Assembly: GCA_012719355.1 (NCBI GenBank) | Contig: JAAYAM010000077.1 | Coordinates: forward strand, 25,383-89,382 | Direction of reading: 5' to 3' | Length of the DNA: 64,000 bases | Source: Acidobacteriota bacterium | GTDB lineage: Bacteria; Acidobacteriota; UBA6911 | Part shown: piece after piece, positions 36,976 through 56,925 of the stretch | Layout of the letters: each line of letters opens with the position of its first letter | How positions within the stretch are numbered: the stretch's first letter is position 1 | Notes under the pieces: generated by a model | What the model was told of the DNA's origin: nothing | The model's database searches: none | The model's input: only the letters and a program-made list of their open reading frames with translations | Made by a program: the position numbers and the translations under genes

Positions 36976-38313
<1,338 letters not shown>

Positions 38314-38327
38314 CCTCTTTCCTCTCC

Positions 38328-38378
38328 GGCCGCAGATTGCACAGAATGTAATTTGTGTAATCTGCGGCCTCCTTTTTA
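38328..38378 (+). terminator. canonical Rho-independent terminator of rho
   Basis: GGCCGCAGATT-(20 nt loop)-AATCTGCGGCC perfect 11-bp stem, followed by tccttttta. Confidence 0.7.
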
Positions 38379-38397
38379 TAGTATTGTTGTTTCCATT

Positions 38398-39375: not shown

Positions 39376-39384
39376 CCAGATGAT

Positions 39385-40263
39385 ATGCTCCCCAGAGAAG
39401 TCGTCCGGAAGATAAGACGAATCCAGATCACCACCAACAGGGTCGTGAATGAATCGCTGGCCGGCAACTACCACTCGGTGTTCAAAGGCCGGGGGATGGA
39501 GTTCGACGAAGTCAGGGAATACCAGGCCGGCGACGACATCCGGACAATCGACTGGAATGTGACCTCGCGCGCCGGGCGTCTCTTCGTGAAACGATATGTT
39601 GAGGAACGCGAACTGACGGTGATGCTGCTGATCGACGTCAGTGCATCAACCCACTTCGGCTCTGTCGAGAAAAGCAAATCGGAAGTTGCCGCCGAGATCG
39701 CGGCCCTGATCGCCTTTTCCGCAATAAAGAACAATGACAGGATAGGAGCAATCCTGTTCACGGACCGTACCGAGAAATTCATCCCGCCCAGGCGTGGCAG
39801 CACTCACGCCCTCAGAGTCATCAGGGAAGTGCTCTACCAGGAGCCGGGCCATTGCGCCACCAGCATCAGGAAAGCAATCGAGCACCTGAACCTGCTGGTG
39901 CGCAAACGCGCAGTCGTGTTTCTCATTTCGGACCTGCTGGACCAGGGATTTGAAAAAACCCTCAAGGCAGCCAACCGCAGACACGACATTGTCGTCATCC
40001 AGATCATTGACCGACGGGAATCCGAGCTGCCTGACGTGGGTATCGTGGAACTCCGCGACTCCGAAACAGGAGAGATCACGTGCATCGACACTTCCCTTCG
40101 CGGTGTCAGAGAGGTCGTTCGGAAGAACTGGGCCCGTAATCAGGCACGTCTTTCAAGACTCTTTGACTCAAGTCGGATCGACCATATCACGATCGAAACC
40201 GACAAGCCTTACGATGTCCCGCTCGTACGCTTCTTTATGCAGCGCGCCGGAAAAGCCAGATGA
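39385..40263 (+). CDS. DUF58-family protein (vWA-like, MoxR partner)
   Basis: GMEFDEVREYQAGDDIRTIDWNVTSR is the DUF58 hallmark. ATGA overlap with the next gene. Confidence 0.8.
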   Translation: MLPREVVRKIRRIQITTNRVVNESLAGNYHSVFKGRGMEFDEVREYQAGDDIRTIDWNVTSRAGRLFVKRYVEERELTVMLLIDVSASTHFGSVEKSKSEVAAEIAALIAFSAIKNNDRIGAILFTDRTEKFIPPRRGSTHALRVIREVLYQEPGHCATSIRKAIEHLNLLVRKRAVVFLISDLLDQGFEKTLKAANRRHDIVVIQIIDRRESELPDVGIVELRDSETGEITCIDTSLRGVREVVRKNWARNQARLSRLFDSSRIDHITIETDKPYDVPLVRFFMQRAGKAR

Positions 40264-41168
40264 ACATAGTGCCGGGAATATTTCTGTCAGGAGTTCTGCT
40301 GTTGCAGGCCGCGCCGCACGGCGTTGAGATCAGGGAAGACGTCAGTCCCCGCACAGCAACGGTAGGAGATCGTATCCGGATACTCCTGACCGTTTCCGCA
40401 CCGGCCCATTACCGGATCGACATACAGACGCCGGCCGAAGGCGAAGATTTCTCAATCCTCGAAGAGACCAGGACGTCATCAGCAACAGCTCATCGTGCAC
40501 AGATTATCGCTGCCGCCTACAGGACAGGCACATTCCGCTTCCCTCCAATCCCTGTCCGGATAACAGCACCTGAAGGAAAGGAATTCTCGGCCTTCACTCC
40601 CGGAGCTGTGGTCGAAATCAAAAGCGTGATCGCCGGAGAAGACCCGCGGCTGAAAGATCTGAAGAGACAGGAGGAGATTCCCGGCAAGACGCACGCGCGG
40701 CTCTGGCTCTTTGCAACACTGACGTTGTGCATTCTGGGCGCACTTGCCTGGCGAGCGGTCAGGCGCCGGCGCAGGGTTGCCGCGGCTGCATCCGCTGCAG
40801 AGAAGACCCCTGCGCCTGACGGGCTTTCCTCTGCCGAGGCTGAACTGCAACGGCTCCTCTCGAGCGGGTTTACCGCCGGCGCAGCCCGGGGATGTTACAT
40901 ACTCCTCTCGAACATCATCAGGAAGATTGTTGAAAACGGTCTGGGAGTCCCCGCTATGAAGAAAACAACATCAGAGATAGTCGGGAGGATGCGTCTAAGA
41001 CGGGATGTTGCCGATGAGATCACCGACCGGGTCGAATCGCTGCTGTCGCGCTGTGATCTGGTCAAGTTCGCCGGATATACTCCATCCCCGGCTGAGCATG
41101 AAACTGCAGCAAAAGAGGCGGTCGGATTACTTGCCGTCTGCCGTGACAGGCCTGACAGGGGGCTCTGA
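40260..41168 (+). CDS. membrane protein of the Bat operon (DUF4381-like)
   Basis: N-terminal signal/TM and one central TM (LWLFATLTLCILGALAW). Positionally equivalent to the hypothetical gene between DUF58 and batA in Bat operons. Confidence 0.55.
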   Translation: MNIVPGIFLSGVLLLQAAPHGVEIREDVSPRTATVGDRIRILLTVSAPAHYRIDIQTPAEGEDFSILEETRTSSATAHRAQIIAAAYRTGTFRFPPIPVRITAPEGKEFSAFTPGAVVEIKSVIAGEDPRLKDLKRQEEIPGKTHARLWLFATLTLCILGALAWRAVRRRRRVAAAASAAEKTPAPDGLSSAEAELQRLLSSGFTAGAARGCYILLSNIIRKIVENGLGVPAMKKTTSEIVGRMRLRRDVADEITDRVESLLSRCDLVKFAGYTPSPAEHETAAKEAVGLLAVCRDRPDRGL

Positions 41169-42157
41169 TGCATCTGCAGAATCCTGAGTTTCTATTGCTG
41201 CTCCCTCTCATACCGTTGGTGATCTGGAGATACATAAAACTCCAACGCAGCAGACTGAGAGGCCTGCAGTTTTCGTCGGCAATGGCGCTCGAAGGGGTGC
41301 GGCCATCCTGGACGGTTCACGCACGCCACGTCCTGTTTGTGTCCAACACGGTTGCTCTGGCGCTGACGATAACAGCCCTCGCCCGGCCGCAGAAGGGGAC
41401 CGAGATTGAAGAGGTGTTGACGGAAGGGATCGATATCATCATGGCGCTGGACGCGTCCGGCAGCATGGCAGCCGAGGACTTCGAGCCGCACAACCGTTTC
41501 TTCGTGGCGAAGTCAGTCATCAGCACGTTCATCGAAGGGCTGCGTCACGATCGGGCCGGGCTCGTGGTGTTTGCGGGGAAGGCACTCACCCGCTGCCCTC
41601 CGACTCTTGACTACGGAGCTCTCAGGAATGTGCTCGAAGAGACCCGTCTGGGAGAGATCGAAGACGGCACTGCCATCGGCAATGCCTTGGCCTGCTGCCT
41701 CAACCGCCTTCGTGTGAGTACGGCAAAGTCTAAAGTAGTCATTCTGGTAACCGACGGAGTAAACAACCGGGGAGAAATCCAGCCGGCGGATGCAGCCTTG
41801 ATGGCCCAACTGCTCGGCGCGAGAATATACACGGTCGGAATCGGATCCTCGGGAACAGCCCGGTTCCCCATTCAGGATCCCGTGTACGGCAGAACGTATG
41901 TAGACATGCAGGTTGAAATCGATGAGGAATCGCTCCGAAATATCGCTGAAAGCACGGGAGGGATCTACTACCGCGCAACCGACAGGCCTTCCCTGGAGAA
42001 GATTTTCGCGGAAATCGGCCGTCTCGAAACAACCGAGATACGGTCAAGGGTGCACCGACGCTACAGTGAGCGATTCCACTATTTCCTGCTCCCTGCGCTC
42101 GGGCTCGTTCTCCTTGGAACGCTCACGGGCTACTCCCGTTTTTCCAGGATACCGTGA
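41168..42157 (+). CDS. batA: vWA-domain protein BatA
   Basis: Two N-terminal TM helices, then a vWA domain with the MIDAS motif DASGSM...TDGVNN, and a C-terminal TM. Confidence 0.75.
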   Translation: MHLQNPEFLLLLPLIPLVIWRYIKLQRSRLRGLQFSSAMALEGVRPSWTVHARHVLFVSNTVALALTITALARPQKGTEIEEVLTEGIDIIMALDASGSMAAEDFEPHNRFFVAKSVISTFIEGLRHDRAGLVVFAGKALTRCPPTLDYGALRNVLEETRLGEIEDGTAIGNALACCLNRLRVSTAKSKVVILVTDGVNNRGEIQPADAALMAQLLGARIYTVGIGSSGTARFPIQDPVYGRTYVDMQVEIDEESLRNIAESTGGIYYRATDRPSLEKIFAEIGRLETTEIRSRVHRRYSERFHYFLLPALGLVLLGTLTGYSRFSRIP

Positions 42158-43743
42158 TGATATTCGCCAGACCTGATTACCTTCATCTGCTCTGGGCGGT
42201 CCCGTTTCTCGCCCTCTTTTTTTATCGATCGTTCCTGGTACGACGGCGAAGGCTGGAGACAATGGTGGGCACGGCTCTACCGATCACCCTGACGGGCAGA
42301 GCCGTCATCAGGGTTCTGTGCGTCATCGGATTCTTCCTGTTTGGCATACTGGCAGCCGCACGGCCTCAGTGGGGACAGAAGACCGAAACGGTTCACCGCC
42401 GCGGCATCGATCTCATCATTGCGCTCGACACTTCGTACAGCATGGGTGCCGATGATGTCGTCCCGAACCGGCTGGAGAAAGCCAAAACCGCGATCAAAGA
42501 TCTTATCAAAAGATCCGAAGGAGACCGCATCGGACTGATTGCTTTTTCCGGCGGCGCCTTCGTTCAATGTCCGCTGACGCTTGATTACGGCGCGGCCTAC
42601 CTCTTTCTCGAGGCGGCTGCCTCAGGAATGATTCCGGAACCCGGGACCTCGCTTTCGTCGGCCATAAGGACCGCCACCGCGGCATTCGTCGAAAAGGAAA
42701 CAAAGTACAAAGTGCTCGTGCTGTTCACCGATGGAGAGGATTTGAAAGGAGGTGTGGACAACGCAGTCCGGGAGGCCAGGAAGGCTGGGGTCGTCATTTA
42801 CACGGTCGGGATAGGATCGCCTGAGGGAATCCCGCTACCGGTTCGAAGCCTGGACGGCGGCATCCTGGACTACAGGAAAAGGCCGGACGGGAAGGTGGTG
42901 GTGAGCCGTCTCGATGAAAACGGCCTGGCCGAAATCGCGGAGAGTACAGGCGGGCGCTATTTCAGGGCAACGGCCTCAGGAGCCGAAATTGCTGCAATGT
43001 ACGATGACATTTCCCGGCTGGAAAAGAAGGAACTGGAATCGAGCATCTTCCGGAATTACGAGGACCGCTTCCAGTACCCCCTCGCGATCGCAGTCCTTTT
43101 CCTGGTTGCGGGATCCTGGATCAGTGAAAGCCGGAGACCGTGGACAGGAAGACAGATCGGGCTGTTGGCAGTCGCAGCGGTCATGGCATTGCCGGCATCG
43201 GCTTCGTCCCGGTCGGCGGCTGCGAAAAACAACGACGGAAACAGCTATTTCGCCGAGGGGAAATATGTAGATGCCGAGAGAGCGTACATGGAGGCGCGCG
43301 AAAGGGATCCCCGCAGGCCGGAGCTTTTGTATAACCTCGGCAATTCGCTGATCAGGCAGAAGAAGTACGGCCCGGGGATCCGGGCGCTTCAACAGGCGAT
43401 CGAAACGGGAGACGATGCCCTCAAGCAAAAGAGCTGGTTCAATGCCGGCTGCGCGCTCTTCCTGATGGGCGATTACGAGGCCTCGGCGGATGCATTCATC
43501 GAGGCGCTCAAGCTGGATCCCTCGGACCTGGACGCCAAGCATAATCTGGAAATGGCATTGCAGGCGAAACAGCCGGCAAGCCACAAACAGGAATCCGCAG
43601 ACAGTCGCCCCCCGCAACAGACTCGATTTACCAGAGAACAGGCGGCGCAATTGCTGGATGCCATTCAGGAACAGGAAACAGAGGAACAACGCAGGTTGAT
43701 ACAACGCCGGGTGAGACCGGCATCAAACGAGAGGGACTGGTGA
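42154..43743 (+). CDS. batB: vWA-domain plus TPR protein (BatB-BatC fusion)
   Basis: TM + vWA MIDAS (DTSYSM...TDGED), then C-terminal TPR repeats (YNLGNSLIRQKKY, WFNAGCALFLMGDYEAS). Confidence 0.75.
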   Translation: MMIFARPDYLHLLWAVPFLALFFYRSFLVRRRRLETMVGTALPITLTGRAVIRVLCVIGFFLFGILAAARPQWGQKTETVHRRGIDLIIALDTSYSMGADDVVPNRLEKAKTAIKDLIKRSEGDRIGLIAFSGGAFVQCPLTLDYGAAYLFLEAAASGMIPEPGTSLSSAIRTATAAFVEKETKYKVLVLFTDGEDLKGGVDNAVREARKAGVVIYTVGIGSPEGIPLPVRSLDGGILDYRKRPDGKVVVSRLDENGLAEIAESTGGRYFRATASGAEIAAMYDDISRLEKKELESSIFRNYEDRFQYPLAIAVLFLVAGSWISESRRPWTGRQIGLLAVAAVMALPASASSRSAAAKNNDGNSYFAEGKYVDAERAYMEARERDPRRPELLYNLGNSLIRQKKYGPGIRALQQAIETGDDALKQKSWFNAGCALFLMGDYEASADAFIEALKLDPSDLDAKHNLEMALQAKQPASHKQESADSRPPQQTRFTREQAAQLLDAIQEQETEEQRRLIQRRVRPASNERDW

Positions 43744-46280
43744 GACCCCTGGCTGCCGATTGGAACGGAGTGAAACGGGTGATTTTACTTGTTCTCTTTC
43801 TGCTCCCTGGAATTCGGGCGTTTGCTGAACACATCAGAGTCACCGCGTCAATAGACAGCGAAGTCATCGGGATTGAAGACCAGCTGCGCCTAACCATAAC
43901 AGTTTCCGGCAGAGAAAGCGGCAATGTAAATGCTCCCAGGATCGGCGATGTAAGGGGTTTCAGAGTCGTCGCCGGTCCCGATGTCAGCTCCCGGCTCCAG
44001 TGGGCCGACGGAGAAGCGAGGAACTGGAAGGCGTTCAGCTATGTTCTTCTTCCCGAAAAGGAAGGACAGTTCACAATCGCGCCTATCGAAGTCGCAATAG
44101 AAAACAGGATTTTCAGAACCGAGCCACTGCAGGTTCGCGTTACTTCGGCTCCGCAAAAAAGATCTCCGGTTCAACGAAAGATGCCTCGTCCGGTCCCGGA
44201 TCCGGAGAACGTATTTGTCAGAGCTGAGCTCGACAGAGATACGGCTTATCAGGGGCAGCAGGTAACCCTTTCATACCTGGTCTACACCACCGTCTCGATT
44301 TCGGGCATCGATCTTCACGAGAGCCCGCCGCTCAACGGATTCTGGGTGGAAGATCTCGAAATCGACGGAAATCCCAAAGGGATTGCCCGGATCGTCGACG
44401 GCCGCGAATATCGCATGTTTACCGTCAAGAAACAGGCGCTGTTTCCGACCTCGTCAGGCAGAGTCAGCATACCTTCGAGCACGTTCGCGCTTTCAGCAAA
44501 CTCGGCCGGCGGCTTCTTTGACTTTTTCGGAAGGACCGAGACCGTCTACCGCAGAACTCCGGAATTGATCCTGGATGTAAAGCCGATCCCGGACAAAGGG
44601 CGTCCGGCAGGCTTTTCACATGCGGTCGGATCCTTCGGCCTGCGCGCCCAGATCGATAAGAACGAGGTTACTGCCGGCGATGCTGTCTCGCTCCAGGTAG
44701 CGCTGGAAGGAAAAGGAAATTTGAAAATGATTCCGGAGATCGGCCTTCCCTCCTTTAGCGGTTTCACCGTCTACTCACCCAGGCGCTCGGATGACATACG
44801 CGCTTCTGGCGACGGGCGGATCGGAGGCAGCAGGATATGGGAGTATGTTCTTGTGCCGGTAGAGCCGGGGGAGCAGACCATCCCTTCGGTTTCCTTCTCT
44901 TACTTTGATCCCGAGCGGGAGGAGTTTGAAACCGTATCGACAACCGCACTGGAACTGAAGGTGACGCCAGGTGTCGCCGAGCCGGCGCCGGATCTGAGGA
45001 GTGCGAAGAGTGCGGACATTCATCGGTTGAAAGAGTTCTTGGGTGATCCGGGCGGAGACCGCACGCCTCTATACAGGAATTACTGGTTCTACGTGATCGC
45101 GGCGATCCCGCTTGCCTTCAATTGCGGAGCATTGCTGTACCTTAAGCGTTTTTCGGGCGGAAAGGCACGTTCTGCCAGAGAGACCGCCGTCGAGCAGCTG
45201 AAGCTTGCCGAGAAAGAGGGATTGTCGATGCCCCGTCTTTTCTATGACCGGGCTTCGGCAGCCCTGTCAGGATATCTCTCGAAGACATTCAATCTCTCCG
45301 AAATCGAACTGACAACGGATGGAGTCAAAGCCGCTCTCTCGCGTAACCGCGTTGAAGAGGCTGTCGTGCAGGAGACTATGACCTGTCTGCAGGAGTGCGA
45401 CTACGGACGCTTCGTCGCGGCCTCGGGGTCCCCGGAAAAGATGCGGGAACTGGCGGGTCGCATTCATAAGATCATCGATGCCCTCGACAAGAAAGGAAAG
45501 ACCGGGGTGTCCGCGCGCGCGGCATCGGCCGTTTTACTGCTCTTGCTGGCGCCCGGACTGTGCCTGCCGTCGCAAATGGAGCTGTCTCCTGAAAAGCTTT
45601 TCGGGAAAGGAAACTCCGAATACCGGAAGGGGAACTACAAGGAAGCGGCGGAATGCTATCGGCGGCTGCTGGAATCGGGTTTTGAAAGCGGTGCCGTCTA
45701 CTACAACCTGGGAAATACCTGCTTTCGAGAGGAACGACTCGGGGAAGCGATCTACTACTGGGAGAAGTCACTGCAGAAATCACCGGGAGATCGGGAGGCT
45801 CTCGCCAACCTGGCATTGGCCGATTCCTTTCTCGAGGGCGGATCTCAATTTGCGCAAGATGCCGCGGTGCCGCGCGTGTCAGCCGCCGTCCAGGAGTTCC
45901 TGTCAATTGAGCGGCAGAGCCTGGCAGTGCTGTTTCTGTTCGTGCTAACGAATCTATTCTTTTCGATTCACCTGCCGGCCAAAGACCCGCGGCGCTCCGT
46001 CCGGAGACTGCGGGCGGCAGCCGTCGCTGCAATCCTGTTCATTGTCTGTACGGCATCGCTCAGTTGGAGAATCTACGAACGGGACTTCTATACAAGAGGG
46101 GTAGTGCTGGAATCGGGCGTTGAGGTGCGCAGCACCCCCGGTCAGGACAGCCCGACAGTGTTGACAATTCGTGAGGGGACACGGGCCAGGGTTGATCAAT
46201 CAGAGGGCGAATGGTACAGGATAAGACTTGTCAACGGCTTGAGTGGCTGGATACACAGGGACAAGTTGAGAATCCTTTAG
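43740..46280 (+). CDS. batD: BatD-like oxygen-tolerance protein fused to a TPR + SH3b module (BatD-BatE fusion)
   Basis: N-terminal BatD-like beta-rich domain. Central TM segments and TPR repeats (YYNLGNTCFREERLGEAIYYWEKSL). C-terminal SH3b (GEWYRIRLVNGLSGWIHRDKLRIL). GTG start overlaps the batB stop. Confidence 0.65.
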   Translation: MRPLAADWNGVKRVILLVLFLLPGIRAFAEHIRVTASIDSEVIGIEDQLRLTITVSGRESGNVNAPRIGDVRGFRVVAGPDVSSRLQWADGEARNWKAFSYVLLPEKEGQFTIAPIEVAIENRIFRTEPLQVRVTSAPQKRSPVQRKMPRPVPDPENVFVRAELDRDTAYQGQQVTLSYLVYTTVSISGIDLHESPPLNGFWVEDLEIDGNPKGIARIVDGREYRMFTVKKQALFPTSSGRVSIPSSTFALSANSAGGFFDFFGRTETVYRRTPELILDVKPIPDKGRPAGFSHAVGSFGLRAQIDKNEVTAGDAVSLQVALEGKGNLKMIPEIGLPSFSGFTVYSPRRSDDIRASGDGRIGGSRIWEYVLVPVEPGEQTIPSVSFSYFDPEREEFETVSTTALELKVTPGVAEPAPDLRSAKSADIHRLKEFLGDPGGDRTPLYRNYWFYVIAAIPLAFNCGALLYLKRFSGGKARSARETAVEQLKLAEKEGLSMPRLFYDRASAALSGYLSKTFNLSEIELTTDGVKAALSRNRVEEAVVQETMTCLQECDYGRFVAASGSPEKMRELAGRIHKIIDALDKKGKTGVSARAASAVLLLLLAPGLCLPSQMELSPEKLFGKGNSEYRKGNYKEAAECYRRLLESGFESGAVYYNLGNTCFREERLGEAIYYWEKSLQKSPGDREALANLALADSFLEGGSQFAQDAAVPRVSAAVQEFLSIERQSLAVLFLFVLTNLFFSIHLPAKDPRRSVRRLRAAAVAAILFIVCTASLSWRIYERDFYTRGVVLESGVEVRSTPGQDSPTVLTIREGTRARVDQSEGEWYRIRLVNGLSGWIHRDKLRIL

Positions 46281-46968: not shown

Positions 46969-47991
46969 GTGGCTATGGGCATTCCAATATCGCAGATGCT
47001 GGCGGTGGCCGGCTACGTGCTGAAACAGAAGGCGGCCGGGAACAAAAAATTTCCGCTCGTACTCATGCTGGAACCGCTGTTCCGCTGCAATCTGTCGTGT
47101 GCCGGATGCGGCAAGATAAGATATCCGGCCGAGGTCCTGAGACAGCAACTCACTCCGGAACAATGCTTCCATGCCGCCGAGGAATGCGGCGCCCCGATGG
47201 TCAGCATCCCGGGAGGAGAACCGCTGCTGCATCCGCGGATCTCAGAAATCGTCGAGGGACTGATTGCGCGCGGCCGTTACGTCTACCTCTGTACGAATGC
47301 CCTTATACTGAAGAAGAAACTCGAACTGTTCACGCCAAGCAGGTTCTTCACTATCAACGTGCATCTCGACGGTGGGAGAAAGCAACACGACCGGTCCGTT
47401 GGACGCGAAGGAGCCTACGATATCGCCGTTGAAGCGATTCAGGAGTCGGTGAGGCGAGGCTTTCGCGTAACCACCAACACCACCGTCTTCAGCGATTCCG
47501 ATCCCGCAAGCGTGCGACAGTTCTTCGATGAAGTGATGGAGCTCGGGGTGGAAGGGATGACCATCTCTCCCGGATACCAATACGAGAAGGCGCCCGACCA
47601 GGAGCATTTCCTCAGCATCGCAGAGACCCGCCGGCTGTTCAAAGCCGTCTTGAGCGGCCGGAAGAAGAGCTGGAAATTCAACCAGAGCCCGCTCTTTCTC
47701 GAATTTCTCGCAGGATCGAGAGAATACGACTGCACACCCTGGGGCATGCCCGGCTACAGCATCTTCGGCTGGCAGAAGCCCTGTTATCTGCTGCAGGACG
47801 GGTATTGCGAAACCTTTGCCGAGCTGCTTGAGCAGACCGAATGGGAGAGCTACGGAAGGAGGTCAGGCAATCCGCGCTGCGCCGGCTGTATGGTGCACAG
47901 CGGGTTTGAGGCCAGCGCCGTAAACGACACTTTCGGGTCGCTGAAAGGATTGCGGGACACCATCCGGGCTATTCGAACTGATGCAGAATGA
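46969..47991 (+). CDS. hpnH: hopanoid biosynthesis radical SAM protein HpnH (adenosylhopane synthase)
   Basis: [32 protein letters not shown]...[17 protein letters not shown] closely matches the HpnH N-terminus, including the CxxxCxxC radical-SAM cluster. Confidence 0.8.
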   Translation: [340 protein letters not shown]

Positions 47992-49916: not shown

Positions 49917-51437
49917 ATGACGAATCAGAGCAAAGCCGGAGCTGAAAGCCGGGCATACACAGCATTGAAGGAAGTCTTCCAGGCAGGCCGCCCCATCATC
50001 TTTATCCGCACGGCCGAAGAGGCGCGTGCACACACGCTCCTGCAGGAGATTGGGCGCAAACTTTTTGCCGGGTCCACCACGGTGTGGAGCTGGTCGCTCA
50101 CAACCGGCCTTTCGCACCCGGAGAGCACGAATAGAGAGAAACTCGGGCCCGATGCAGTGCTCGACTTTATCGCGTCACACCGGCAAAAGGGGATATTCCA
50201 GCTGAAGGATTTCCATCATTTCATGGACGATCCTCTCATACGCAGGCGTTTGCGCGATCTGTACGGGCTCTGTCTGGACTCAGGCAAGTTCATTGTCATC
50301 ACATCCCCAGGCCGAACGATACCTGAAGAACTGGGCCGTCAGATTGCCCTGGTTGAGCTGCACACGCCGGATGCGGAAGAATTGCTCCACTTCCTTCGCA
50401 GCGAAGCGGAGACAATTGCGCGGCAGGGATTTCGGGTTGACACTTCCGAGCCGGTTCTGTTTGCACTTTCGCGGGCACTGCAGGGACTGACTATTGATGA
50501 GTCGCGTCACGCACTTCGGCGGGCGCTGTCGGTCGCCGGCGCCCTGGACATAAACTCGCTGCAGAGCCTGGTGGACGAAAAGAAGCTCGTTGTAAACAGG
50601 ACCGGACTGGTACAGTACGTTTCGGATTCGACCCGGATAGAGGATGTCGGCGGGCTCGAGTACCTGAAGGCATGGCTGACGGAGCGCCGCAAACTCTTCA
50701 TCGAGCGCGACAGCATGAGCGCCGAAATCGTGCCCAAAGGGCTGCTGGTCATGGGAGTTTCAGGCTGCGGCAAGAGCCTTTCAGTCAAAGCCATCGCATC
50801 CTGCTTCGGACTGCCGCTTTACCGGATCGAAATGAGCGAGGTCTTTTCCGGGCGACATGGCAATCCCGACGCCGCATTTGTCGAGGCGTGCCGTACGGTC
50901 GAGGCAGTCGCGCCGGCAGTCGTCTGGTTTGACGAAATTGAGATGGGGATTACGGGCAGGGCGACTGACGATGCGTCTCTCAGCCGCATCTTCGCATTCT
51001 TCCTCACGTGGATGCAGGAGAAAGCGCGCGGCCTGTTTGTCGCAGCGACAGCCAACCGGATCGACTTGCTTCCTGCCGAGATGATCCGGAAGGGAAGGTT
51101 CGACGAGGTCTTCTTCATCGATCTCCCCACAGAAGAGGAAAGGTCTGAAGTTTTCAGGATCCATCTCGAGAAACGCGGGATCGATCCAGTGCCGCTTCAG
51201 CTGCACAGGTTGAAGATAATCACCCAGGGATGGACGGGAGCCGAAATAGAACAATGCGTCGTCTCCGCCCTGACACAGGTGCGGCTGCAGAACCGGGAGC
51301 TTACGTTTGACGACCTTCATGAAGCGGCCCAGAACGTCATTCCGCTTTCAAAAACGATGCGCGAGCAGGTGGACCATATACGGTCCTGGGCTTATGACCG
51401 CGCATTGCGCGCCTCGCCGAAAGAATCGCGCAAATAA
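49917..51437 (+). CDS. AAA+ ATPase (classic clade) with a degenerate N-terminal ATPase-like domain; unknown function
   Basis: C-terminal AAA module: Walker A GVSGCGKS, Walker B VVWFDEIE, second region of homology ATANRIDLLPAEMIRKGRFDEV. The N-terminal 250 aa are Rossmann-like but lack Walker motifs. Confidence 0.75.
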   Translation: MTNQSKAGAESRAYTALKEVFQAGRPIIFIRTAEEARAHTLLQEIGRKLFAGSTTVWSWSLTTGLSHPESTNREKLGPDAVLDFIASHRQKGIFQLKDFHHFMDDPLIRRRLRDLYGLCLDSGKFIVITSPGRTIPEELGRQIALVELHTPDAEELLHFLRSEAETIARQGFRVDTSEPVLFALSRALQGLTIDESRHALRRALSVAGALDINSLQSLVDEKKLVVNRTGLVQYVSDSTRIEDVGGLEYLKAWLTERRKLFIERDSMSAEIVPKGLLVMGVSGCGKSLSVKAIASCFGLPLYRIEMSEVFSGRHGNPDAAFVEACRTVEAVAPAVVWFDEIEMGITGRATDDASLSRIFAFFLTWMQEKARGLFVAATANRIDLLPAEMIRKGRFDEVFFIDLPTEEERSEVFRIHLEKRGIDPVPLQLHRLKIITQGWTGAEIEQCVVSALTQVRLQNRELTFDDLHEAAQNVIPLSKTMREQVDHIRSWAYDRALRASPKESRK

Positions 51438-51455: not shown

Positions 51456-54287
51456 TCACCTCAGCTCAATGATATTGACGTTCTTCTCTTCGAGGGCAAG
51501 TTCAAGCAGATCGTCGCGGCAGGTGAACAGCATGAGCTGGCGCCGTGAAGCCTCTCCTGTAAGGACGCCGATCGCCTGCTTCAACCGGTCGCTGTCGTAA
51601 GCTGCGAAGGGCTCATCCAGCAGGCAGGGGCACGGTTCCTCCTCGTTGGAAATCAGATCAAGAACACCGAAGCGCAGCGAGAAATAGAGCTGATCCTGGG
51701 TGCCTCGGCTCAAATGCTCGGCTAACCGGAGTTCCCCTGAATTCGTCTCCCGCACCCAGACCTGGAAATCCGGATCGATTTTTACTTCTTCATATCGCTT
51801 GTTGCACAGCAGCAGGAACCGCTGTTCGACAGAGGCATTTAGCTGCGGCGCGAGCACCTCCTGTTGCTGGCGCGACAGCTTCTGCAGCGTTTCGAGAGCA
51901 AGCTCCAGCGCAGTCCTGTTCTTTTGCAGCCGGTCGAAATCCTCTTCCGCCAAAGCGAGGTCTTCTTCGATTTCCGAAGAGAGCCGGGAATTCTCGAACG
52001 CGTGCTTCACTCTCTCAACAGCTCGGGCATGCTCTTCCCGTGCCCGGACCAGCTGCGATCTTATCTCTTCCTCTTTTTCTTCGGCTTCGGCGATATCGGG
52101 AAGGTAAGGCAGAAGCGGCGCAGGATCCTGTGAGTCCTCCGGTGCACCTTCGGGACATGACTGTGCCATCAGCTCATCGAGTCGCTCTTTCCACTGCTCC
52201 AGGCTCATATTTTCAGATAGCCGGCGAAATTCGCGCGTGTACGACGCTTCCTTTTCGAGCATGTCGAGCAGCTTCTGCCTCCTGGCGCATTCCTCGCGAA
52301 ACTGCTCCGGGGTGGCGACACCGGCGTGATCAAGCAGCGACTGAATGCGGGAACATTTCGCTTCATGCTCGTCTGCAAGCTCCTGCTCCCTTGCCTCCAG
52401 GGAAGCGGCCTTCTGAACACAGGCATCGTATTGGGAATCGAGCTCGCGGTAGCGCCTGAGATTCGCCCTCAGGACATCGATCTGGAATTTGAGGTTGCCG
52501 GGAGAACAGGAAAGCCCGGCCTTAGCCAGGCCATCCTTGAGCAAAAGGTAAAGTTCCTCCAGCTGAGCATTCAGGCGTTCTCTCTGCTGTTGCACTTCGT
52601 CCAGGCGCGATCTCAGGTCGCCGAGTTTCTGCCGGTCCTGCTCCGCCTGTCTTGCAGCTGCAAGGAAATCATCGATCCTGACGAAGCCCGAGTTCTTCAT
52701 AACTTCGCCCAGTTCGCGCCGTTTCCTTCCGCCCTCCTCTCTCGTGGAATTCAGCTCCTTTTCGAGGCTGCGAATCATCTCTCTCGTTTTCGCAGCGGTT
52801 TTCCGCGCCAGGGCGGCGCCGGCAAAGAGAATGATGGCAACCAGCACCAGCAAGGCCCCGAGTCCGATCACCGCACCCTGCGGCAAAACGTCCAATCCGA
52901 ATCCGTACCGGACAACGGAAGGCGCGATTCCCAGAAACAGCGACAGTCCGGCAAGAAGTTTTCTGCTCGAGGAGGTGCGCTCCGCTTCGGCAAGAGCCGA
53001 TTTTTCAACCGCTGCCTTTTCCGCCAGCACAGTGCACTTCTGGGAAGCGATCTGTTCTTCTTCGGCGGCCTCGCGCGCAATGCGCTGCCAGTCGCTTTCG
53101 GGATTCCTGAAGGCCGCGCTCAGTTCGCTCAAGCGGTTCTCCAGTGCAGTGACTTCGCCTTCGAGTCTGGTCTGGGTTTTCTGCTGACCATCTCTCTGCA
53201 GCGTAATGCTGAGATAGGTCACAAACCATTCCGTGATCTTCTCTGTCTCATTGCCCTTGGCGAATTCCGCGTATGCGGCAAGTTCTTCCCTCTGCCGTTC
53301 GGCCCTTGAGAGACGCTCCAGCGCTTCTTCCTTTTCGGCCCGGATCTCGTCCAGATGTTTTCCCAGACTGTCGCGGGCGCCCATCAGCTCATTGAGTTCA
53401 TTGAGATCTTCCGCAGGAAAATCCTCGCGCGCGCCCAGAACGCCGATTCCGCTCCTGAGGTCGAAAAGATTTTCCTGGAGTTCCTCAAGCATCCGGATTT
53501 TCGCGGTCACTTCGCGTCTGCGAGCGGACAGAAGCGCTCTCTGGATTGCGGCGAGTTCCCGCTCCAACCGGGACATTTCGTTCGCCGCGCGACTCCGCTC
53601 CTCTATCCAACCCTGAAATTGCCGTCGGCGCTCTTCCAGCGCCGTTCGCTCGTTCTGCAGTGTCTGGACAAGATCCATCGCCTGGCGGTAAGGCTTCGTC
53701 GGGGCCCGTTCTGAACCGATAGAATCAAGCTTGTCCTGAATCTCCAACAGGCTCCGGCGAATCGAGAGTTCCTCATCGCCGGACTGCGCGAGATTCGCTA
53801 TCCTGTCGCGTATGCTCTCGTGCCCGCTGATCTCCGCGGCCCTGTTCTCACGTATGATTCCCACGGATTCGAAGAGCTCCTTCGGCATTCCGAGATGGGT
53901 CCGGGCAAAGAGCACCTCTCCGTTGCGCTGCTGTTCGTACTGTCTGGTGATCTCCTCGCCAGCCGACGTGCGAAGCTCGATCCTGGTTTCCTCTCTTCCG
54001 AACCCCCGGTGTATTTCAATTTCACGGCCGTCCTGGAGTCTGCACCATACGATCCCCCCGTATTCCTGGCAATGCCATGGCCTGTAGTGCTCGACCCACG
54101 GATCCAGGCGCCGCTGGACCCTAAGGTCGGCCCGTAACTGGCCGTACAGCATTCCGGTGAGGAATCGCTGGAGGGTCGATTTACCGCCTTCATTGGCGGC
54201 GAAAACAAGATTGAGCCCGCTCTGGAATTCGAGCATCGTGTCGCGCAGTTTTCCAAATCCAAGGATATGACAGCGTGTCAGGATCAT
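51456..54287 (-). CDS. SbcC/Rad50-like ABC ATPase with a central transmembrane hairpin (YhaN/SbcE-like)
   Basis: N-terminal Walker A FAANEGGKSTL. Long coiled-coil arms rich in E/R/A/L. C-terminal signature/D-loop region (LSRGTQDQLYFSLRF, CLLDEPFAAYD). Two hydrophobic helices at aa 444-495 where a zinc hook would be expected. Confidence 0.75.
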   Translation of the reverse strand: MILTRCHILGFGKLRDTMLEFQSGLNLVFAANEGGKSTLQRFLTGMLYGQLRADLRVQRRLDPWVEHYRPWHCQEYGGIVWCRLQDGREIEIHRGFGREETRIELRTSAGEEITRQYEQQRNGEVLFARTHLGMPKELFESVGIIRENRAAEISGHESIRDRIANLAQSGDEELSIRRSLLEIQDKLDSIGSERAPTKPYRQAMDLVQTLQNERTALEERRRQFQGWIEERSRAANEMSRLERELAAIQRALLSARRREVTAKIRMLEELQENLFDLRSGIGVLGAREDFPAEDLNELNELMGARDSLGKHLDEIRAEKEEALERLSRAERQREELAAYAEFAKGNETEKITEWFVTYLSITLQRDGQQKTQTRLEGEVTALENRLSELSAAFRNPESDWQRIAREAAEEEQIASQKCTVLAEKAAVEKSALAEAERTSSSRKLLAGLSLFLGIAPSVVRYGFGLDVLPQGAVIGLGALLVLVAIILFAGAALARKTAAKTREMIRSLEKELNSTREEGGRKRRELGEVMKNSGFVRIDDFLAAARQAEQDRQKLGDLRSRLDEVQQQRERLNAQLEELYLLLKDGLAKAGLSCSPGNLKFQIDVLRANLRRYRELDSQYDACVQKAASLEAREQELADEHEAKCSRIQSLLDHAGVATPEQFREECARRQKLLDMLEKEASYTREFRRLSENMSLEQWKERLDELMAQSCPEGAPEDSQDPAPLLPYLPDIAEAEEKEEEIRSQLVRAREEHARAVERVKHAFENSRLSSEIEEDLALAEEDFDRLQKNRTALELALETLQKLSRQQQEVLAPQLNASVEQRFLLLCNKRYEEVKIDPDFQVWVRETNSGELRLAEHLSRGTQDQLYFSLRFGVLDLISNEEEPCPCLLDEPFAAYDSDRLKQAIGVLTGEASRRQLMLFTCRDDLLELALEEKNVNIIELR

Positions 54288-55429
54288 AGCAGCCTCACTC
54301 CCCGTCCACTAAGTGCCTGGACGCCATACAACCGCGCTCGTTCGAGAACCGTTCTTTCGGATTCCGAGGCCGAGGCGATCCGCTCGTTCATGATGCGGAC
54401 AAACCGCCCGCGCATCGTCTTTTCCCGTGCGAGAGATTCGAAATCATGCGCCGGCTGAGTCCTATCTTCCCACTGCAGGTAAAGCGCCTCCCCTGCAAGC
54501 CTTTCTTCAAGTTCGGAGAATGAAAGGTCGAGTCTGGGATCCAAAGTCCCGGCAAGTCGGACCCGGAGAATCGTGTTGGCATCAAACGATACGCCGCGCC
54601 GCTGAAGAATCGCGTCCAGGATCTGCTCGCGTGTTGAGAACGCGTCGCATTCGATTTCGATGGTGTTCAGGTTGTACTGGCTGCATGACCTGCTGTCGAT
54701 TCTTACGGCTCCATCTGTTATCTCACCGACGAGATAGCCGCGGCTCCCCTCTTCGTCCCATCCCCTCCCCTCAGGTATGCCCGAATACCAGACCTGCGTC
54801 TCATCAATCGGATTCGGGATCTGACGCTGCTGATGATAATGACCGAGGGCGCAGTACCGCACGTTCTTGCGAACGATCTCCTCGACCGCGAACGGTCCGT
54901 GTGGCGACTTTCCGGTGGGAACACGGCTGAGATCGGATCCGTGGGACAGGACGATGTTGAAGAAATCGTCGGGGAGCACGGGCAGGCGTTCGAAGTGATG
55001 CTCGTCGAGCCTGCTTCTGCTGAAGCCGAAGCCCGTGACCCGAACGCCAAGATCCGGAAGTTCAACCGAACGGAATTCCTCTTCAGTGAAGATGTGGACG
55101 TTCGAGGGCCATGATTCTTCCCTGTAAGGCGATCCCTGAATACATGGGTCGTGGTTGCCGGGAGAAATGAAGACCGGGGCAGGATTCAGTCTCTCCAGCT
55201 GAAGTCTGAGAAATTCGAAGGTGTCGGGAGTGATGCGGTCGATTTCGAAAAGATCTCCTGCTATCAGCACGAAATCAACGCCTTCGTTCTGCACATCCTC
55301 CACTATACGGCGGAAGGTACCGCGTATGGCTTCCCTCTTGCGATCTCCAAGACGGGAAGGAAAACCCGAACCGGAAAAACTGGTGTCCAAATGAACGTCC
55401 GAGGTATGGACAAATCGAACGGGTCTCAT
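54284..55429 (-). CDS. SbcD/Mre11-like calcineurin-fold phosphoesterase (YhaO/SbcF-like)
   Basis: Motifs I-V of Mre11-type phosphoesterases: HTSDVHLD, AGDLFE, GNHD, VLSHG, GHYH. ATGA overlap with the downstream ATPase gene. Confidence 0.8.
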   Translation of the reverse strand: MRPVRFVHTSDVHLDTSFSGSGFPSRLGDRKREAIRGTFRRIVEDVQNEGVDFVLIAGDLFEIDRITPDTFEFLRLQLERLNPAPVFISPGNHDPCIQGSPYREESWPSNVHIFTEEEFRSVELPDLGVRVTGFGFSRSRLDEHHFERLPVLPDDFFNIVLSHGSDLSRVPTGKSPHGPFAVEEIVRKNVRYCALGHYHQQRQIPNPIDETQVWYSGIPEGRGWDEEGSRGYLVGEITDGAVRIDSRSCSQYNLNTIEIECDAFSTREQILDAILQRRGVSFDANTILRVRLAGTLDPRLDLSFSELEERLAGEALYLQWEDRTQPAHDFESLAREKTMRGRFVRIMNERIASASESERTVLERARLYGVQALSGRGVRLL

Positions 55430-55450: not shown

Positions 55451-56842
55451 TTATGCCAAATGCACGCTTTCAAGCAGCCTCGGCACATGCGTCTTCCAGC
55501 CGAGAGTGCCCTCGATCTCGCGCGCGAGAGCCCTGCTCGACTCCTCCTCTCCATGGACGATGAATGTGAGCCGCGGCGCCTCTCTGAACTTGCTCAGCCA
55601 GCGCATAATCTCGATGGAATCCGCGTGGCCGGAGAATGCGTCAACGGTGCGGATCTGGGCACGCACCGGCACCATTTCACCATGGATCTTGATTGCTCTT
55701 GCACCGTCTCTCAGCAACTGGCCGCGCGTCCCGACGGATTGGTAGCCTACAAACAGGATGGTATTGCGCGAATCCGGCAGCCGGTATTTCAGATGGTGCA
55801 GGATGCGTCCGCCGGTGGCCATCCCGCTGGCCGAGACTATCACGGCCGGAAAGCGGATGTCGTTGATCTTCTGTGAATCTTCACGCGTGTGCACGAACTG
55901 CAGGCCGGGACAATGGACGGGACACTCTCCCGTTTCCCGGAAGACCTTCTTCGCCTCCTCGTCAAACTCGTCGATATGGCGGCAGAATACGTCGGTTACT
56001 CTCCGGGCCATAGGGCTGTCGACGAAGACCGGGAGGTCGGGGATAAGACCGCGGACTTTCATGTCCCGCAACAGGTACAGAAGCGTCTGAGTACGGCCCA
56101 CCGCAAAGGACGGGATTACAACCATCCCGCCGCGTTTGGCGGTCTCCTTGATGATCGCGGTCAGTTCCTTTACAGGGTCGTCCTCCATATGCACACGGTT
56201 CCCGTACGTCGACTCCAGGACAAGGTAGTCTGCCTGGATGACAGGCGCCGGATCCCTCAGGACAAGGGCGTCGTATCGCCCCAGATCGCCGGAAAACACC
56301 AGTCGCATGGGCCTTCCGTTGAGCATGTTGACCTCGACGGTTGCGGAACCGAGTATGTGCCCCGCGTCGCGGAACCTGATCTGTGTCCCGTCAGGCAGTT
56401 CCGTCTGCTCGTCGTAATCGATTGTGCGGAAAAGCGGCATCACGTGCTCAGCATCTTCGCTTGTAAAAAGCGGGAGTGCAGGCGTGTGCTTGCTGAATTT
56501 CATTTTGTTGGCAAAACGTGCATCTTCTTCCTGGAGGTGCGCGGCATCCATCAAACTGATTTCACAGAGTTCCGCAGTCACGGCGGTCGTCCAGATTTTT
56601 CCGCGGAAACCCTCACGCACCAGTACCGGAAGCATCCCCGCATGGTCTATGTGCGCATGAGTGAGCAGCACGTGATCAACAGATGAAGGCTTCACCTGCG
56701 GGGGTTCCCAGTTCATAAGGCGGAGGTGTTTGGGGCCCTGGAACATGCCATAGTCGACCAGGAAACGAGTTTCTCCGGTATCGATCAGAAATTTTGAGCC
56801 GCTGACCGTACCGGCCGCTCCTAGAAACCTGATTTTAGCCAT
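55451..56842 (-). CDS. beta-CASP family metallo-beta-lactamase-fold nuclease
   Basis: MBL motifs LLTHAHIDHAG (HxHxDH), GH and the acidic residue, then a beta-CASP insert and C-terminal RMMBL-like motifs (DAFSGHAD, IVHGEE). Start at the internal Met MAKIRFLG. 21 nt upstream of the sbcD-like gene on the same strand. Confidence 0.8.
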   Translation of the reverse strand: MAKIRFLGAAGTVSGSKFLIDTGETRFLVDYGMFQGPKHLRLMNWEPPQVKPSSVDHVLLTHAHIDHAGMLPVLVREGFRGKIWTTAVTAELCEISLMDAAHLQEEDARFANKMKFSKHTPALPLFTSEDAEHVMPLFRTIDYDEQTELPDGTQIRFRDAGHILGSATVEVNMLNGRPMRLVFSGDLGRYDALVLRDPAPVIQADYLVLESTYGNRVHMEDDPVKELTAIIKETAKRGGMVVIPSFAVGRTQTLLYLLRDMKVRGLIPDLPVFVDSPMARRVTDVFCRHIDEFDEEAKKVFRETGECPVHCPGLQFVHTREDSQKINDIRFPAVIVSASGMATGGRILHHLKYRLPDSRNTILFVGYQSVGTRGQLLRDGARAIKIHGEMVPVRAQIRTVDAFSGHADSIEIMRWLSKFREAPRLTFIVHGEEESSRALAREIEGTLGWKTHVPRLLESVHLA

Positions 56843-56925
56843 GATGTTGAATATGCAAGAACAGGCACACAAGATGCAACATACAAATCTTCAATTCCCT
56901 TCAAAGAATTGTTGCGGACGCTTCG

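What the first reader, a model, noticed from the sequence alone, without database searches (positions are those of the whole stretch)
52803..52958. Transmembrane hairpin at the apex of the SbcC-like coiled coil, in place of a zinc hook
Residues about 444-495 of the SbcC-like protein (LLAGLSLFLGIAPSVVRYGFGLDVLPQGAVIGLGALLVLVAIILFAGAALARK) form two hydrophobic helices. They sit exactly between the two long coiled-coil arms, where Rad50/SbcC normally carries the CxxC zinc hook. No CxxC hook motif is present in the arm region. A membrane-inserted apex would tether the ATPase/nuclease head to the inner membrane. That suits a system that surveys DNA entering the cell or DNA at the membrane.
Basis: seen in the sequence. 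Interest (0 to 1): 0.6.

Follow-up and report, generated by a model that had tools for sequence, protein, structure and literature searches.

The report
Membrane-anchored apex of an SbcE/YhaN repair ATPase
This Acidobacteriota gene encodes a Rad50/SbcC-like DNA-repair ATPase of the known SbcE (YhaN) family, whose long coiled-coil arm ends in a hydrophobic two-helix hairpin instead of a zinc hook, which probably tethers the ATPase–nuclease complex to the cell membrane.

Summary
Residues 444-496 of the 943-aa minus-strand ORF 51456..54287 form two hydrophobic helices at the exact middle of an SMC/Rad50-type protein, and the protein has no CxxC anywhere.

The second helix is strongly membrane-like: KD19 2.84, summed Hessa scale about -4 kcal/mol, hydrophobic moment 0.06. 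The first helix is marginal in this protein. Both flanks are rich in K/R. AlphaFold2 gives helix 400-463, a 6-residue turn, then helix 470-533.

The feature is not peculiar to this locus. 480 of 485 full-length relatives carry the same block at 0.49-0.50 of their length; named examples come from Acidobacteriota, Hydrogenedentota, Tissierellia and Bacillus. A profile-profile comparison aligns the family end to end with Bacillus subtilis SbcE/YhaN (99.8%, E 3e-30), hairpin on hairpin.

This is therefore the "unique, hydrophobic, insoluble central domain" described for SbcE in 2010. No paper I could search calls it transmembrane.

An Mre11/SbcD-like nuclease gene lies immediately upstream, with an ATGA stop/start overlap, as yhaO does in Bacillus.

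Verdict: a new (Gram-negative) member of a known family. The membrane-anchor reading is well supported by sequence but has no experimental test. The "surveys entering DNA" idea remains speculation.

The parts
51456..54287 (-). SbcE/YhaN-like SMC-type ABC ATPase, 943 aa, about 108 kDa (the coordinates include the stop codon)
   Evidence: ORF. Pfam AAA_23 at 6.5e-12 and AAA_27 (YhaN AAA) at 27.6 bits against a cut-off of 22. hhalign against Bacillus SbcE gives 99.84%, E 3.3e-30, over 836 columns end to end. AlphaFold2 model and Foldseek matches to Smc5/6, Rad50, MukB and JetC.
53694..54287 (-). N-terminal half of the ATPase head (residues 1-198), with Walker A AANEGGKS at residues 30-37
   Evidence: PDB profile hits to Rad50 heads over residues 1-52.
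52959..53693 (-). Ascending coiled-coil arm (residues 199-443). If fully helical it is about 36 nm long.
   Evidence: AlphaFold2 helices 199-277, 294-335, 347-388 and 400-463. The 3.5-residue hydrophobic periodicity has z = 6.2 and 4.4 in two of its helices.
52899..52958 (-). Hydrophobic helix 1 of the apex hairpin (residues 444-463, LLAGLSLFLGIAPSVVRYGF). It is preceded by R442 and K443.
   Evidence: In the family, columns 444-459 are 0% charged, columns 442/443 are 80-94% K/R, and A446/A453 are 88-100% small residues.
52881..52898 (-). Tight turn (residues 464-469, GLDVLP), the presumed periplasmic loop. The family consensus here is G-F-[DN]-x-L-P-x-W-x-[DE].
   Evidence: AlphaFold2 non-helical stretch 464-469. 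Column profile: D/E 35-43% at 466 and 473, P469 49%, W471 37%.
52806..52880 (-). Hydrophobic helix 2 of the apex hairpin (residues 470-494, QGAVIGLGALLVLVAIILFAGAALA). It is followed by R495, K496, K500 and R502.
   Evidence: KD19 2.84. Summed Hessa scale -4.0 kcal/mol. <H> 0.81 and hydrophobic moment 0.06. In the family, G475, A484 and A491 are 80-98% small residues and column 493 is 92% K/R.
51807..52805 (-). Descending coiled-coil arm (residues 495-827), with a low-confidence insert at residues 708-731
   Evidence: AlphaFold2 helices 470-533, 538-588, 596-654, 660-690, 732-761 and 770-827; pLDDT is below 50 at 713-726.
51459..51806 (-). C-terminal half of the ATPase head (residues 828-943): signature LSRGTQD at 859, Walker B CLLDE at 888, and Arg924 where Bacillus SbcE has the H-loop His
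   Evidence: Invariant columns of A1 and A2.
54284..55429 (-). SbcF/YhaO-like Mre11/SbcD-family phosphoesterase, 381 aa. Its stop overlaps the ATPase start (ATGA).
   Evidence: Pfam Metallophos 8.3e-16. NCBIfam SbcD/Mre11 models match but all fall below their cut-offs. Motifs DVH, GDLFE, GNHD and GHYH are present. ATGA overlap. It lies directly upstream in 28/28 related loci whose upstream sequence is present, and likewise in Tissierella and B. subtilis.
55451..56872 (-). beta-CASP metallo-beta-lactamase nuclease, 473 aa, 21 nt upstream on the same strand. Possible accessory nuclease; association is facultative.
   Evidence: Pfam Beta-Casp 2e-38, RMMBL and Lactamase_B. Upstream of the pair in about 15 of 28 related Acidobacteriota loci.

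Best explanation
The locus encodes an SbcE/SbcF (YhaN/YhaO)-type complex. One gene gives a Rad50/SbcC-like ABC ATPase with long antiparallel coiled-coil arms. The other, translationally coupled, gives an Mre11/SbcD-like nuclease.

The arm apex does not carry the CxxC zinc hook. It is a hydrophobic helix-turn-helix of about 50 residues that is embedded in the cytoplasmic membrane. Both arms leave the membrane on the cytoplasmic side, where the flanks are K/R-rich. A loop of 6-14 residues, acidic and rich in Trp and Pro, faces outward.

The arms are antiparallel and must lie on one side of the membrane. Helix 2 is strongly membrane-seeking, so helix 1 has to follow it, giving 2 crossings, or 0 if the insertion is monotopic.

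The hairpin therefore anchors the complex. The ATPase/nuclease head hangs up to about 35 nm into the cytoplasm, which confines ATP-driven DNA-end binding and cutting to a shell under the membrane.

Small residues recur every 7 positions in both helices. This suggests that the coiled-coil packing continues through the bilayer. It may also let two hairpins pair, taking over the arm-joining role of the hook.

Shown here: the architecture, family membership, hydrophobicity and charge pattern, conservation, and gene pairing.
Inferred: actual membrane insertion, dimerisation within the membrane, and nuclease/ATPase activity (the motifs are intact).
Borrowed from B. subtilis SbcE: a role in double-strand-break repair and transformation.
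For: Family and architecture:
- Pfam AAA_23 and AAA_27.
- End-to-end hhalign with Bacillus SbcE, in which the two hairpins align to each other.
- AlphaFold2 gives helix 400-463, turn, helix 470-533, with pLDDT 60-84. The same helix / 3-residue turn / helix apex is predicted for real B. subtilis SbcE.
- Foldseek matches SMC and Rad50 structures.

Membrane character:
- KD19 is 2.84 against 0.63 or less elsewhere.
- Summed Hessa scale is -4.0 kcal/mol for helix 2, against +11.5 for the best non-hairpin segment.
- Hydrophobic moment is 0.06.
- Flanks hold 6-8 K/R out of 28 residues, against 1-2 inside the block, in 480 homologues. Columns 442/443/493 are 80-94% K/R. Helix columns are 0% charged. 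There is an aromatic/Pro/acidic loop.
- The hairpin is the least sequence-conserved part of the protein (majority-residue frequency 0.42, against 0.67-0.83 elsewhere), yet it is uniformly apolar (mean column KD +1.35, against -0.3 to -0.8). This is the signature of a lipid-facing anchor.

No hook: there is no CxxC, while E. coli SbcC has CPLC at the same relative position.

Partner: an SbcD-like gene with all phosphoesterase motifs and an ATGA overlap, conserved upstream in 28/28 related loci whose upstream sequence is present, and also upstream in Tissierella and in Bacillus.

Literature (PMC2811018): the SbcE central domain is hydrophobic and has a conserved Pro. It is completely insoluble in E. 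coli, as are SbcE and SbcF. SbcE forms polar foci that depend on ComK.
Against: - There is no experimental evidence of membrane association for any family member. The 2010 paper describes SbcE-YFP foci 'on the nucleoids' and rapid pole-to-pole movement, and never mentions a membrane.
- Helix 1 of this protein is marginal (+3.9 kcal/mol; it contains P456, S457 and R460).
- In Bacillus the two helices are only about 16-18 residues long with a 3-5-residue turn, which is short for full spanning.
- A dedicated topology predictor was not available.
- AlphaFold2 confidence in the turn is moderate (pLDDT about 60).
- A minority of relatives (5/129 representatives) lack the hairpin yet keep the nuclease partner, so membrane anchoring is not essential to the core machine.
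Confidence: 0.74

Rival explanations
1. Monotopic (re-entrant) anchor. The hairpin dips into the cytoplasmic leaflet only, as a hydrophobic wedge with a proline-containing turn, like caveolin- or oleosin-type hairpins. The complex is still membrane-tethered, but nothing is exposed outside.
For: The Bacillus hairpins are short, 16 + 18 apolar residues with a 3-5-residue turn (KEWLP/QQW). Semi-conserved prolines occur at 456 and 469 (49% each). The total span is only 40 residues in Bacillus.
Against: In this protein and its clade the block is 53 residues long and helix 2 has 24-25 apolar residues, enough to span the membrane. The loop holds D/E (35-43%), R460 (57%) and Trp. Such residues are costly in the bilayer core but typical of an interface.
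Confidence: 0.14
2. Soluble hydrophobic hinge. The two helices of each of two protomers bury each other in a four-helix bundle that dimerises the arms, as a functional hook or hinge substitute without any membrane.
For: SMC-family proteins always carry a dimerisation element at the apex. Small residues recur with a 7-residue spacing in both helices. SbcE-YFP foci were reported on nucleoids and are mobile.
Against: The helices have no polar face (hydrophobic moment 0.06; 0% charged columns over 16 + 19 positions). The sequence is the least conserved part of the protein, which is the opposite of what a specific protein-protein interface would show. The K/R collars on both sides follow the positive-inside rule. 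The isolated domain is insoluble.
Confidence: 0.07
3. Functional rival. The complex is not a chromosome-repair factor. It is an immunity or restriction device that degrades foreign DNA as it enters through the membrane.
For: The apex is membrane-anchored. B. subtilis SbcE is recruited to the DNA-uptake pole in a ComK-dependent way. There are weak PADLOC similarities to LmuB, GajA and PtuA heads.
Against: Loss of SbcE lowers transformation rather than raising it, and it sensitises cells to double-strand breaks (abstract and text of PMC2811018). The PADLOC hits are generic P-loop matches at E values of 5e-6 or weaker. The neighbourhood is housekeeping: Rho, MoxR/Bat, an HpnH-like gene and peptidases. 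Gene GC content equals that of the window (0.578 vs 0.568). There is one weak hit in 72,556 plasmids and only head-only hits in phages. Synteny is stable across about 30 Acidobacteriota species.
Confidence: 0.12

Closest known systems
Bacillus subtilis SbcE (YhaN) with SbcF (YhaO) (Krishnamurthy et al. 2010, PMC2811018; COG4717; Pfam AAA_27)
   Same: Size is similar (943 vs 963 aa). Both have the head-arm-central domain-arm-head layout. The profiles align end to end (99.8%, E 3e-30), with the hydrophobic central domains aligned to each other. Neither has CxxC. Both have a helix-turn-helix apex in AlphaFold2 models. In both, a Metallophos nuclease gene lies directly upstream.
   Different: Pairwise identity is only 24-25% and is confined to the heads. 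The host is Acidobacteriota, although the paper describes the family as one of Gram-positives. The hairpin is longer (53 vs about 40 residues) with a longer loop. Arg replaces the H-loop His. There is no downstream yhaM (OB + HD) gene; instead there is often a beta-CASP nuclease upstream.
E. coli SbcCD, and Rad50-Mre11 of archaea and eukaryotes
   Same: ABC ATPase head with Walker A, signature and Walker B motifs. Long antiparallel coiled coil. A partner phosphoesterase with motifs I-V, encoded directly upstream. The best PDB sequence matches are Rad50 heads.
   Different: The CxxC zinc hook (CPLC at 506 of 1048 residues in E. coli) is replaced, at the same relative position, by the hydrophobic hairpin. 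There is no significant BLASTP similarity to E. coli SbcC (best E 0.08). The SbcD equivalog and subfamily NCBIfam models score far below their cut-offs.
SMC, MukB, JetC and Smc5/6 (hinge-type SMC proteins)
   Same: Overall fold and arm architecture; these are the top Foldseek matches.
   Different: There is no globular hinge domain and no kleisin-type partner. The partner is a nuclease of the Mre11 family.
Lamassu LmuB, Gabija GajA and Septu PtuA (defence ABC/AAA ATPases)
   Same: Weak N-terminal P-loop similarity.
   Different: E values are only 5e-6 to 6e-3. There are no cognate effector genes, no defence-island context and no mobile-element association.

Membership tests
SbcE/YhaN family (COG4717, Pfam AAA_27) | YhaN-type N-terminal AAA domain (PF13514) above Pfam's gathering score | tested here: met
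   27.6 bits against a cut-off of 22, but only over residues 1-49. JGI names many close homologues 'uncharacterized protein YhaN'.
SbcE/YhaN family (COG4717, Pfam AAA_27) | Full-length homology to experimentally studied B. subtilis SbcE | tested here: met
   hhalign of A1 against A2 gives probability 99.84%, E 3.3e-30, 836 columns, 1-950 against 4-963. Pairwise BLASTP aligns only the heads (E 6e-11 and 1e-8).
SbcE/YhaN family (COG4717, Pfam AAA_27) | Unique hydrophobic central domain between the heptad arms, with a conserved proline and no CxxC (as defined in PMC2811018) | tested here: met
   P469 and P456 are each 49% conserved in the Acidobacteriota clade.
SbcE/YhaN family (COG4717, Pfam AAA_27) | Adjacent SbcD/Mre11-like nuclease gene (yhaO/sbcF) | tested here: met
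   Conserved in 28/28 related loci whose upstream sequence is present, and also in Tissierella and Bacillus.
SbcE/YhaN family (COG4717, Pfam AAA_27) | Role in double-strand-break repair and transformation; polar or nucleoid foci | not testable with these tools
   Known only for B. subtilis.
Canonical SbcC/Rad50 | CxxC zinc hook at the coiled-coil apex | tested here: not met
   No CxxC in the protein. None is conserved in 485 relatives. E. coli SbcC has CPLC at 506.
Canonical SbcC/Rad50 | ABC ATPase head motifs and a long antiparallel coiled coil | tested here: met
Canonical SbcC/Rad50 | Curated SbcC/SbcD models reach their thresholds | tested here: not met
   SbcC_Walker_B scores 17.6 against a cut-off of 27. 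For the partner, TIGR00619 (sbcd) scores 42.4 against 77.65, and the other SbcD/Mre11 models are far below their cut-offs.
Integral membrane protein with an in-in helical hairpin | Two apolar helices of about 20 residues each, a short loop, and the positive-inside charge pattern | tested here: met
   Helix 1 of this protein is marginal (+3.9 kcal/mol).
Integral membrane protein with an in-in helical hairpin | Experimental membrane association or topology, or a dedicated predictor (DeepTMHMM/TOPCONS) | not testable with these tools
   No such tool was available here. The searchable literature is silent on the point.
Known anti-phage defence systems (PADLOC) | Significant match to a system's proteins together with its partner genes | tested here: not met
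   Only weak head matches, LmuB at 4.9e-6 and GajA at 1e-4. Context is housekeeping.

The most novel reading that the evidence does not exclude
SbcE/SbcF would be a widespread membrane-tethered Rad50-Mre11-type machine. The profile search found 1,597 cluster representatives at E <= 1e-30. Named members come from Bacillus, Tissierellia, Acidobacteriota and Hydrogenedentota.

In this reading, paired transmembrane hairpins do the arm-joining job of the zinc hook. They also confine a DNA-end nuclease to a shell of about 35 nm under the membrane. The complex would then act specifically on DNA that enters or is held at the membrane, such as transforming, conjugating or injected DNA, or membrane-attached chromosome.

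This would be the first SMC-family protein with a membrane-embedded 'hinge'. In the literature I could search, it has not been recognised since the family was described in 2010.
Probability: 0.28. Interest if true: 0.65.

Novelty: new member of a known kind. Interest (0 to 1): 0.4.

Why it matters
All well-studied SMC and Rad50 proteins join their arms through a soluble hinge or a zinc hook. An apex embedded in the membrane would add a spatial rule to a DNA-end-processing machine, restricting where in the cell it can work.

It would also explain old puzzles about B. subtilis SbcE: its insolubility and its recruitment to the DNA-uptake pole.

The present locus shows that the feature is not a Firmicute oddity. 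It is conserved in a Gram-negative phylum and beyond. That strengthens the case that the hairpin is functional, and it supplies many diverse sequences for structural and topological work.

For this window alone, the finding is an ordinary chromosomal repair operon of a known, though barely studied, family.

Tried and rejected
- Plus-strand reading of the coordinates: nonsense peptide.
- Genome-collection scan with the family alignment: it recovered only Acidobacteriota, because the derived peptide patterns were clade-specific. It was useful for synteny but not for reaching Bacillus.
- Search from the Tissierella homologue P0213: it stayed within Tissierellia.
- Retrieval of B. subtilis SbcE: I queried with a sequence recalled from memory. 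The database returned the real protein, P0392, at 93% identity to my recollection. Only P0392 was used afterwards.
- AlphaFold-database fold search: the library was not available.
- Supplementary alignment of the 2010 paper: not held.
- Literature searches for YhaN/SbcE with transmembrane, COG4717/PF13514, membrane-anchored SMC-like, and Rad50-like with transmembrane: nothing relevant turned up.
- Second cluster look-up for taxonomy: almost no names.
- Promoter/terminator scan: no more sites than in shuffles, so uninformative.
- Defence-system hypothesis: rejected as the primary reading.
- Gene-fusion or frameshift artefact: rejected, because the ORF is continuous and the architecture is conserved in 480 of 485 proteins.
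Full report
**1. The observation**

The interval 52803-52958 is meaningless on the + strand. On the minus strand it is residues 444-495 of a 943-aa ORF, 51456..54287. The quoted peptide actually runs to K496.

- The segment is by far the most hydrophobic part of the protein. The 19-residue Kyte-Doolittle maximum is 2.84 at 471-491, against 0.63 or less outside residues 430-510.
- Only 5 of 20,000 shuffles of the protein's own residues reach that value. The two longest charge-free runs are 467-494 and 444-459.
- There is no CxxC anywhere.
- Helix 2 (470-494) has Eisenberg <H> 0.81 and hydrophobic moment 0.06. The helix 1 core has <H> 0.75 and moment 0.25, so neither helix is amphipathic.
- On the Hessa biological scale (simple sums), helix 2 scores -4.0 kcal/mol and helix 1 scores +3.9 (marginal). 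The best segment elsewhere in family members has a median of +11.5.

**2. What the protein is**

- Pfam finds AAA_23, AAA_27 (the YhaN AAA domain, above its cut-off) and weak SMC_N and SbcC_Walker_B matches.
- Walker A (AANEGGKS), signature (LSRGTQD) and Walker B (CLLDE) motifs are present.
- AlphaFold2 was run with a 49-sequence alignment and gave mean pLDDT 77.9. The model has an N-terminal and a C-terminal head half joined by long helices. A continuous helix 400-463 is followed by a six-residue turn (464-469) and a continuous helix 470-533.
- Foldseek places the model with Smc5/6, Rad50, condensin, MukB and JetC.
- The best sequence matches in the PDB are Rad50 heads.
- The hairpin centre lies at 0.495 of the length. 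The single CPLC hook of E. coli SbcC lies at 0.483.

The hydrophobic hairpin therefore occupies the hook position.

**3. Surroundings**

- The gene directly upstream (54284..55429, minus strand) is an Mre11/SbcD-family phosphoesterase. It has motifs DVH, GDLFE, GNHD and GHYH.
- Its stop codon overlaps the ATPase start as ATGA.
- A beta-CASP/RMMBL nuclease lies 21 nt further upstream.
- In 30 related Acidobacteriota loci, the SbcD-like gene is always directly upstream (28/28 where the sequence is present). The beta-CASP gene is there in about 15.
- The wider window is housekeeping: Rho, a MoxR-DUF58-BatA/B/D cluster, an HpnH-like radical SAM gene, peptidases and an AAA ATPase.
- Gene GC content equals window GC content.
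- PADLOC gives only weak P-loop matches.
- The family is practically absent from plasmids (one weak hit in 72,556 records) and phages (head-only hits).

**4. Relatives**

- All 120 close homologues (52-94% identity; those that carry an organism name are Acidobacteriota) have the mid-protein hydrophobic pair and no conserved CxxC.
- A profile of 49 of them, searched against 1.84 billion cluster representatives, finds 1,597 proteins at E <= 1e-30 and 9,235 at E <= 1e-10. Of the full-length ones among the top 150, 124 of 129 have the central block.
- Named members include Hydrogenedentota and Tissierella. Tissierella has the same nuclease-ATPase gene pair.
- Over four sets (Acidobacteriota, representatives, Tissierellia, Bacillus), 480 of 485 full-length proteins carry the block. 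It is centred at 0.49-0.50 of the length and spans 40-53 residues. There are 6-8 K/R in the 28 flanking residues and only 1-2 inside.

Column by column in the Acidobacteriota clade:
- Positions 442/443 and 493 are 80-94% K/R.
- Positions 444-459 and 474-492 are never charged.
- The loop carries D/E (35-43%), Pro469 (49%) and Trp471 (37%).
- Small residues recur every seven positions (A446, A453; G475, A484, A491).

The hairpin is the least sequence-conserved region (majority-residue frequency 0.42, against 0.67-0.83 elsewhere) but is uniformly apolar. Composition is conserved while sequence is not, which is what a lipid-facing anchor looks like.

**5. Link to the characterised family**

- The real B. 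subtilis SbcE (P0392, 963 aa) was retrieved from the database.
- Pairwise BLASTP aligns only the heads, at 24-25% identity.
- The profile-profile comparison of the Acidobacteriota family with eight Bacillus SbcE sequences is end to end (99.84%, E 3.3e-30, 836 columns). It puts the two hydrophobic hairpins on top of each other.
- B. subtilis SbcE has KKTVIAAGMLFIVLFSLLQQWILAISFGAALIVYWLVSGK and no CxxC.
- Its AlphaFold2 model has a helix, a 3-residue turn and a helix at that place.
- Its gene order is yhaO (Metallophos), yhaN, yhaM.

Krishnamurthy et al. 2010 (PMC2811018) described exactly this feature:
- It is a 'unique central domain' with a hydrophobic first half and a conserved proline.
- It is completely insoluble in E. 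coli and has no CxxC.
- They showed roles in double-strand-break repair and transformation, and ComK-dependent polar foci.
- They never use the word transmembrane.

None of the 12 papers in the searchable library that mention SbcE does so either. From memory, unverified here: UniProt's automatic annotation of YhaN lists predicted transmembrane helices. The prediction itself is therefore probably already in databases.

**6. Mechanism**

The antiparallel arms must both lie on one side of the membrane, so the hairpin crosses either twice or not at all. Four things favour an in-in spanning hairpin with a short outside loop:
- the strength of helix 2;
- the K/R collars on both flanks;
- the interfacial Trp/Pro/acidic loop;
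- the 53-residue span.

A monotopic wedge remains possible, especially for the shorter Bacillus version. A soluble four-helix hinge is unlikely, given the lack of any polar face and the poor sequence conservation.

The anchored complex would hold its ATPase/nuclease head within about 36 nm of the membrane (245 arm residues at about 0.15 nm per residue; inference). The heptad of small residues suggests that coiled-coil-like packing continues through the bilayer. It may also allow two hairpins to pair, replacing the hook's arm-joining function (inference).

**7. Verdict**

The structural interpretation is supported by sequence, by conservation and by the predicted structures. The functional speculation is untested, and the context does not favour a defence system.

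The locus is a new, Gram-negative member of the known SbcE/SbcF family. The hairpin is that family's hallmark rather than a local novelty. What remains interesting is that the probable membrane anchoring of an SMC-family repair ATPase has, as far as the searchable literature shows, never been examined.

Noticed in passing
Proteins P0241, P0242, P0248, P0249 and P0259 (relatives); locus L033 5699-8590: A minority of family members (5 of 129 full-length representatives) lack the hydrophobic hairpin. Their apex is polar and carries a conserved 'P-x3-(R/K)KGC ... E(L/V)xxY' motif with a single Cys. P0259 still has the upstream Metallophos partner. This could be a different apex-joining device.
   Followed up: partly
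window 51516-51518 (-), residue R924: In the Acidobacteriota clade the position of the ABC H-loop histidine (FTCHEH in Bacillus SbcE, H946 invariant) is a nearly invariant Arg (FTCRDD/FTCRED). This may alter ATP hydrolysis.
   Followed up: no
window 55451-56872 (-): A beta-CASP/RMMBL nuclease lies 21 nt upstream of the nuclease-ATPase pair. It is conserved there in about half of the related Acidobacteriota loci. Its NCBIfam matches, to Cas14-type MBL-CASP and to aCPSF1, are both below their cut-offs. B. subtilis instead has YhaM (OB + HD exonuclease) downstream, and Tissierella has a second Metallophos gene. A third nuclease is thus a recurrent neighbour of the pair.
   Followed up: partly
window 54284-54287: The stop codon of the SbcD-like gene and the start codon of the ATPase overlap as ATGA, implying translational coupling.
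   Followed up: yes
window 49917-51437 (+): A CDC48/FtsH-like AAA ATPase of 506 aa is convergent with the ATPase gene. It has a weak PADLOC IetA match (3e-13) and NCBIfam IteA_antiphage at 37.9 bits, far below the 510 cut-off. It is syntenic in most related loci. Its function is unknown.
   Followed up: no
window 38353-46280 (+): A complete MoxR (AAA_3) - DUF58 - BatA/VWA - VWA/TPR - BatD/TPR/SH3 cluster lies downstream of rho (36976-38313).
   Followed up: no
window 46969-47991 (+): A radical SAM + DUF3463 protein. From memory this architecture is that of the hopanoid side-chain enzyme HpnH. It is conserved next to the locus in related genomes.
   Followed up: no
window 52812-52958 (-), residues 446, 453, 475, 484, 491: Small residues (Ala/Gly/Ser, 80-100% conserved) recur at 7-residue spacing in both hydrophobic helices. 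It looks as if the coiled-coil heptad continues through the hairpin.
   Followed up: partly
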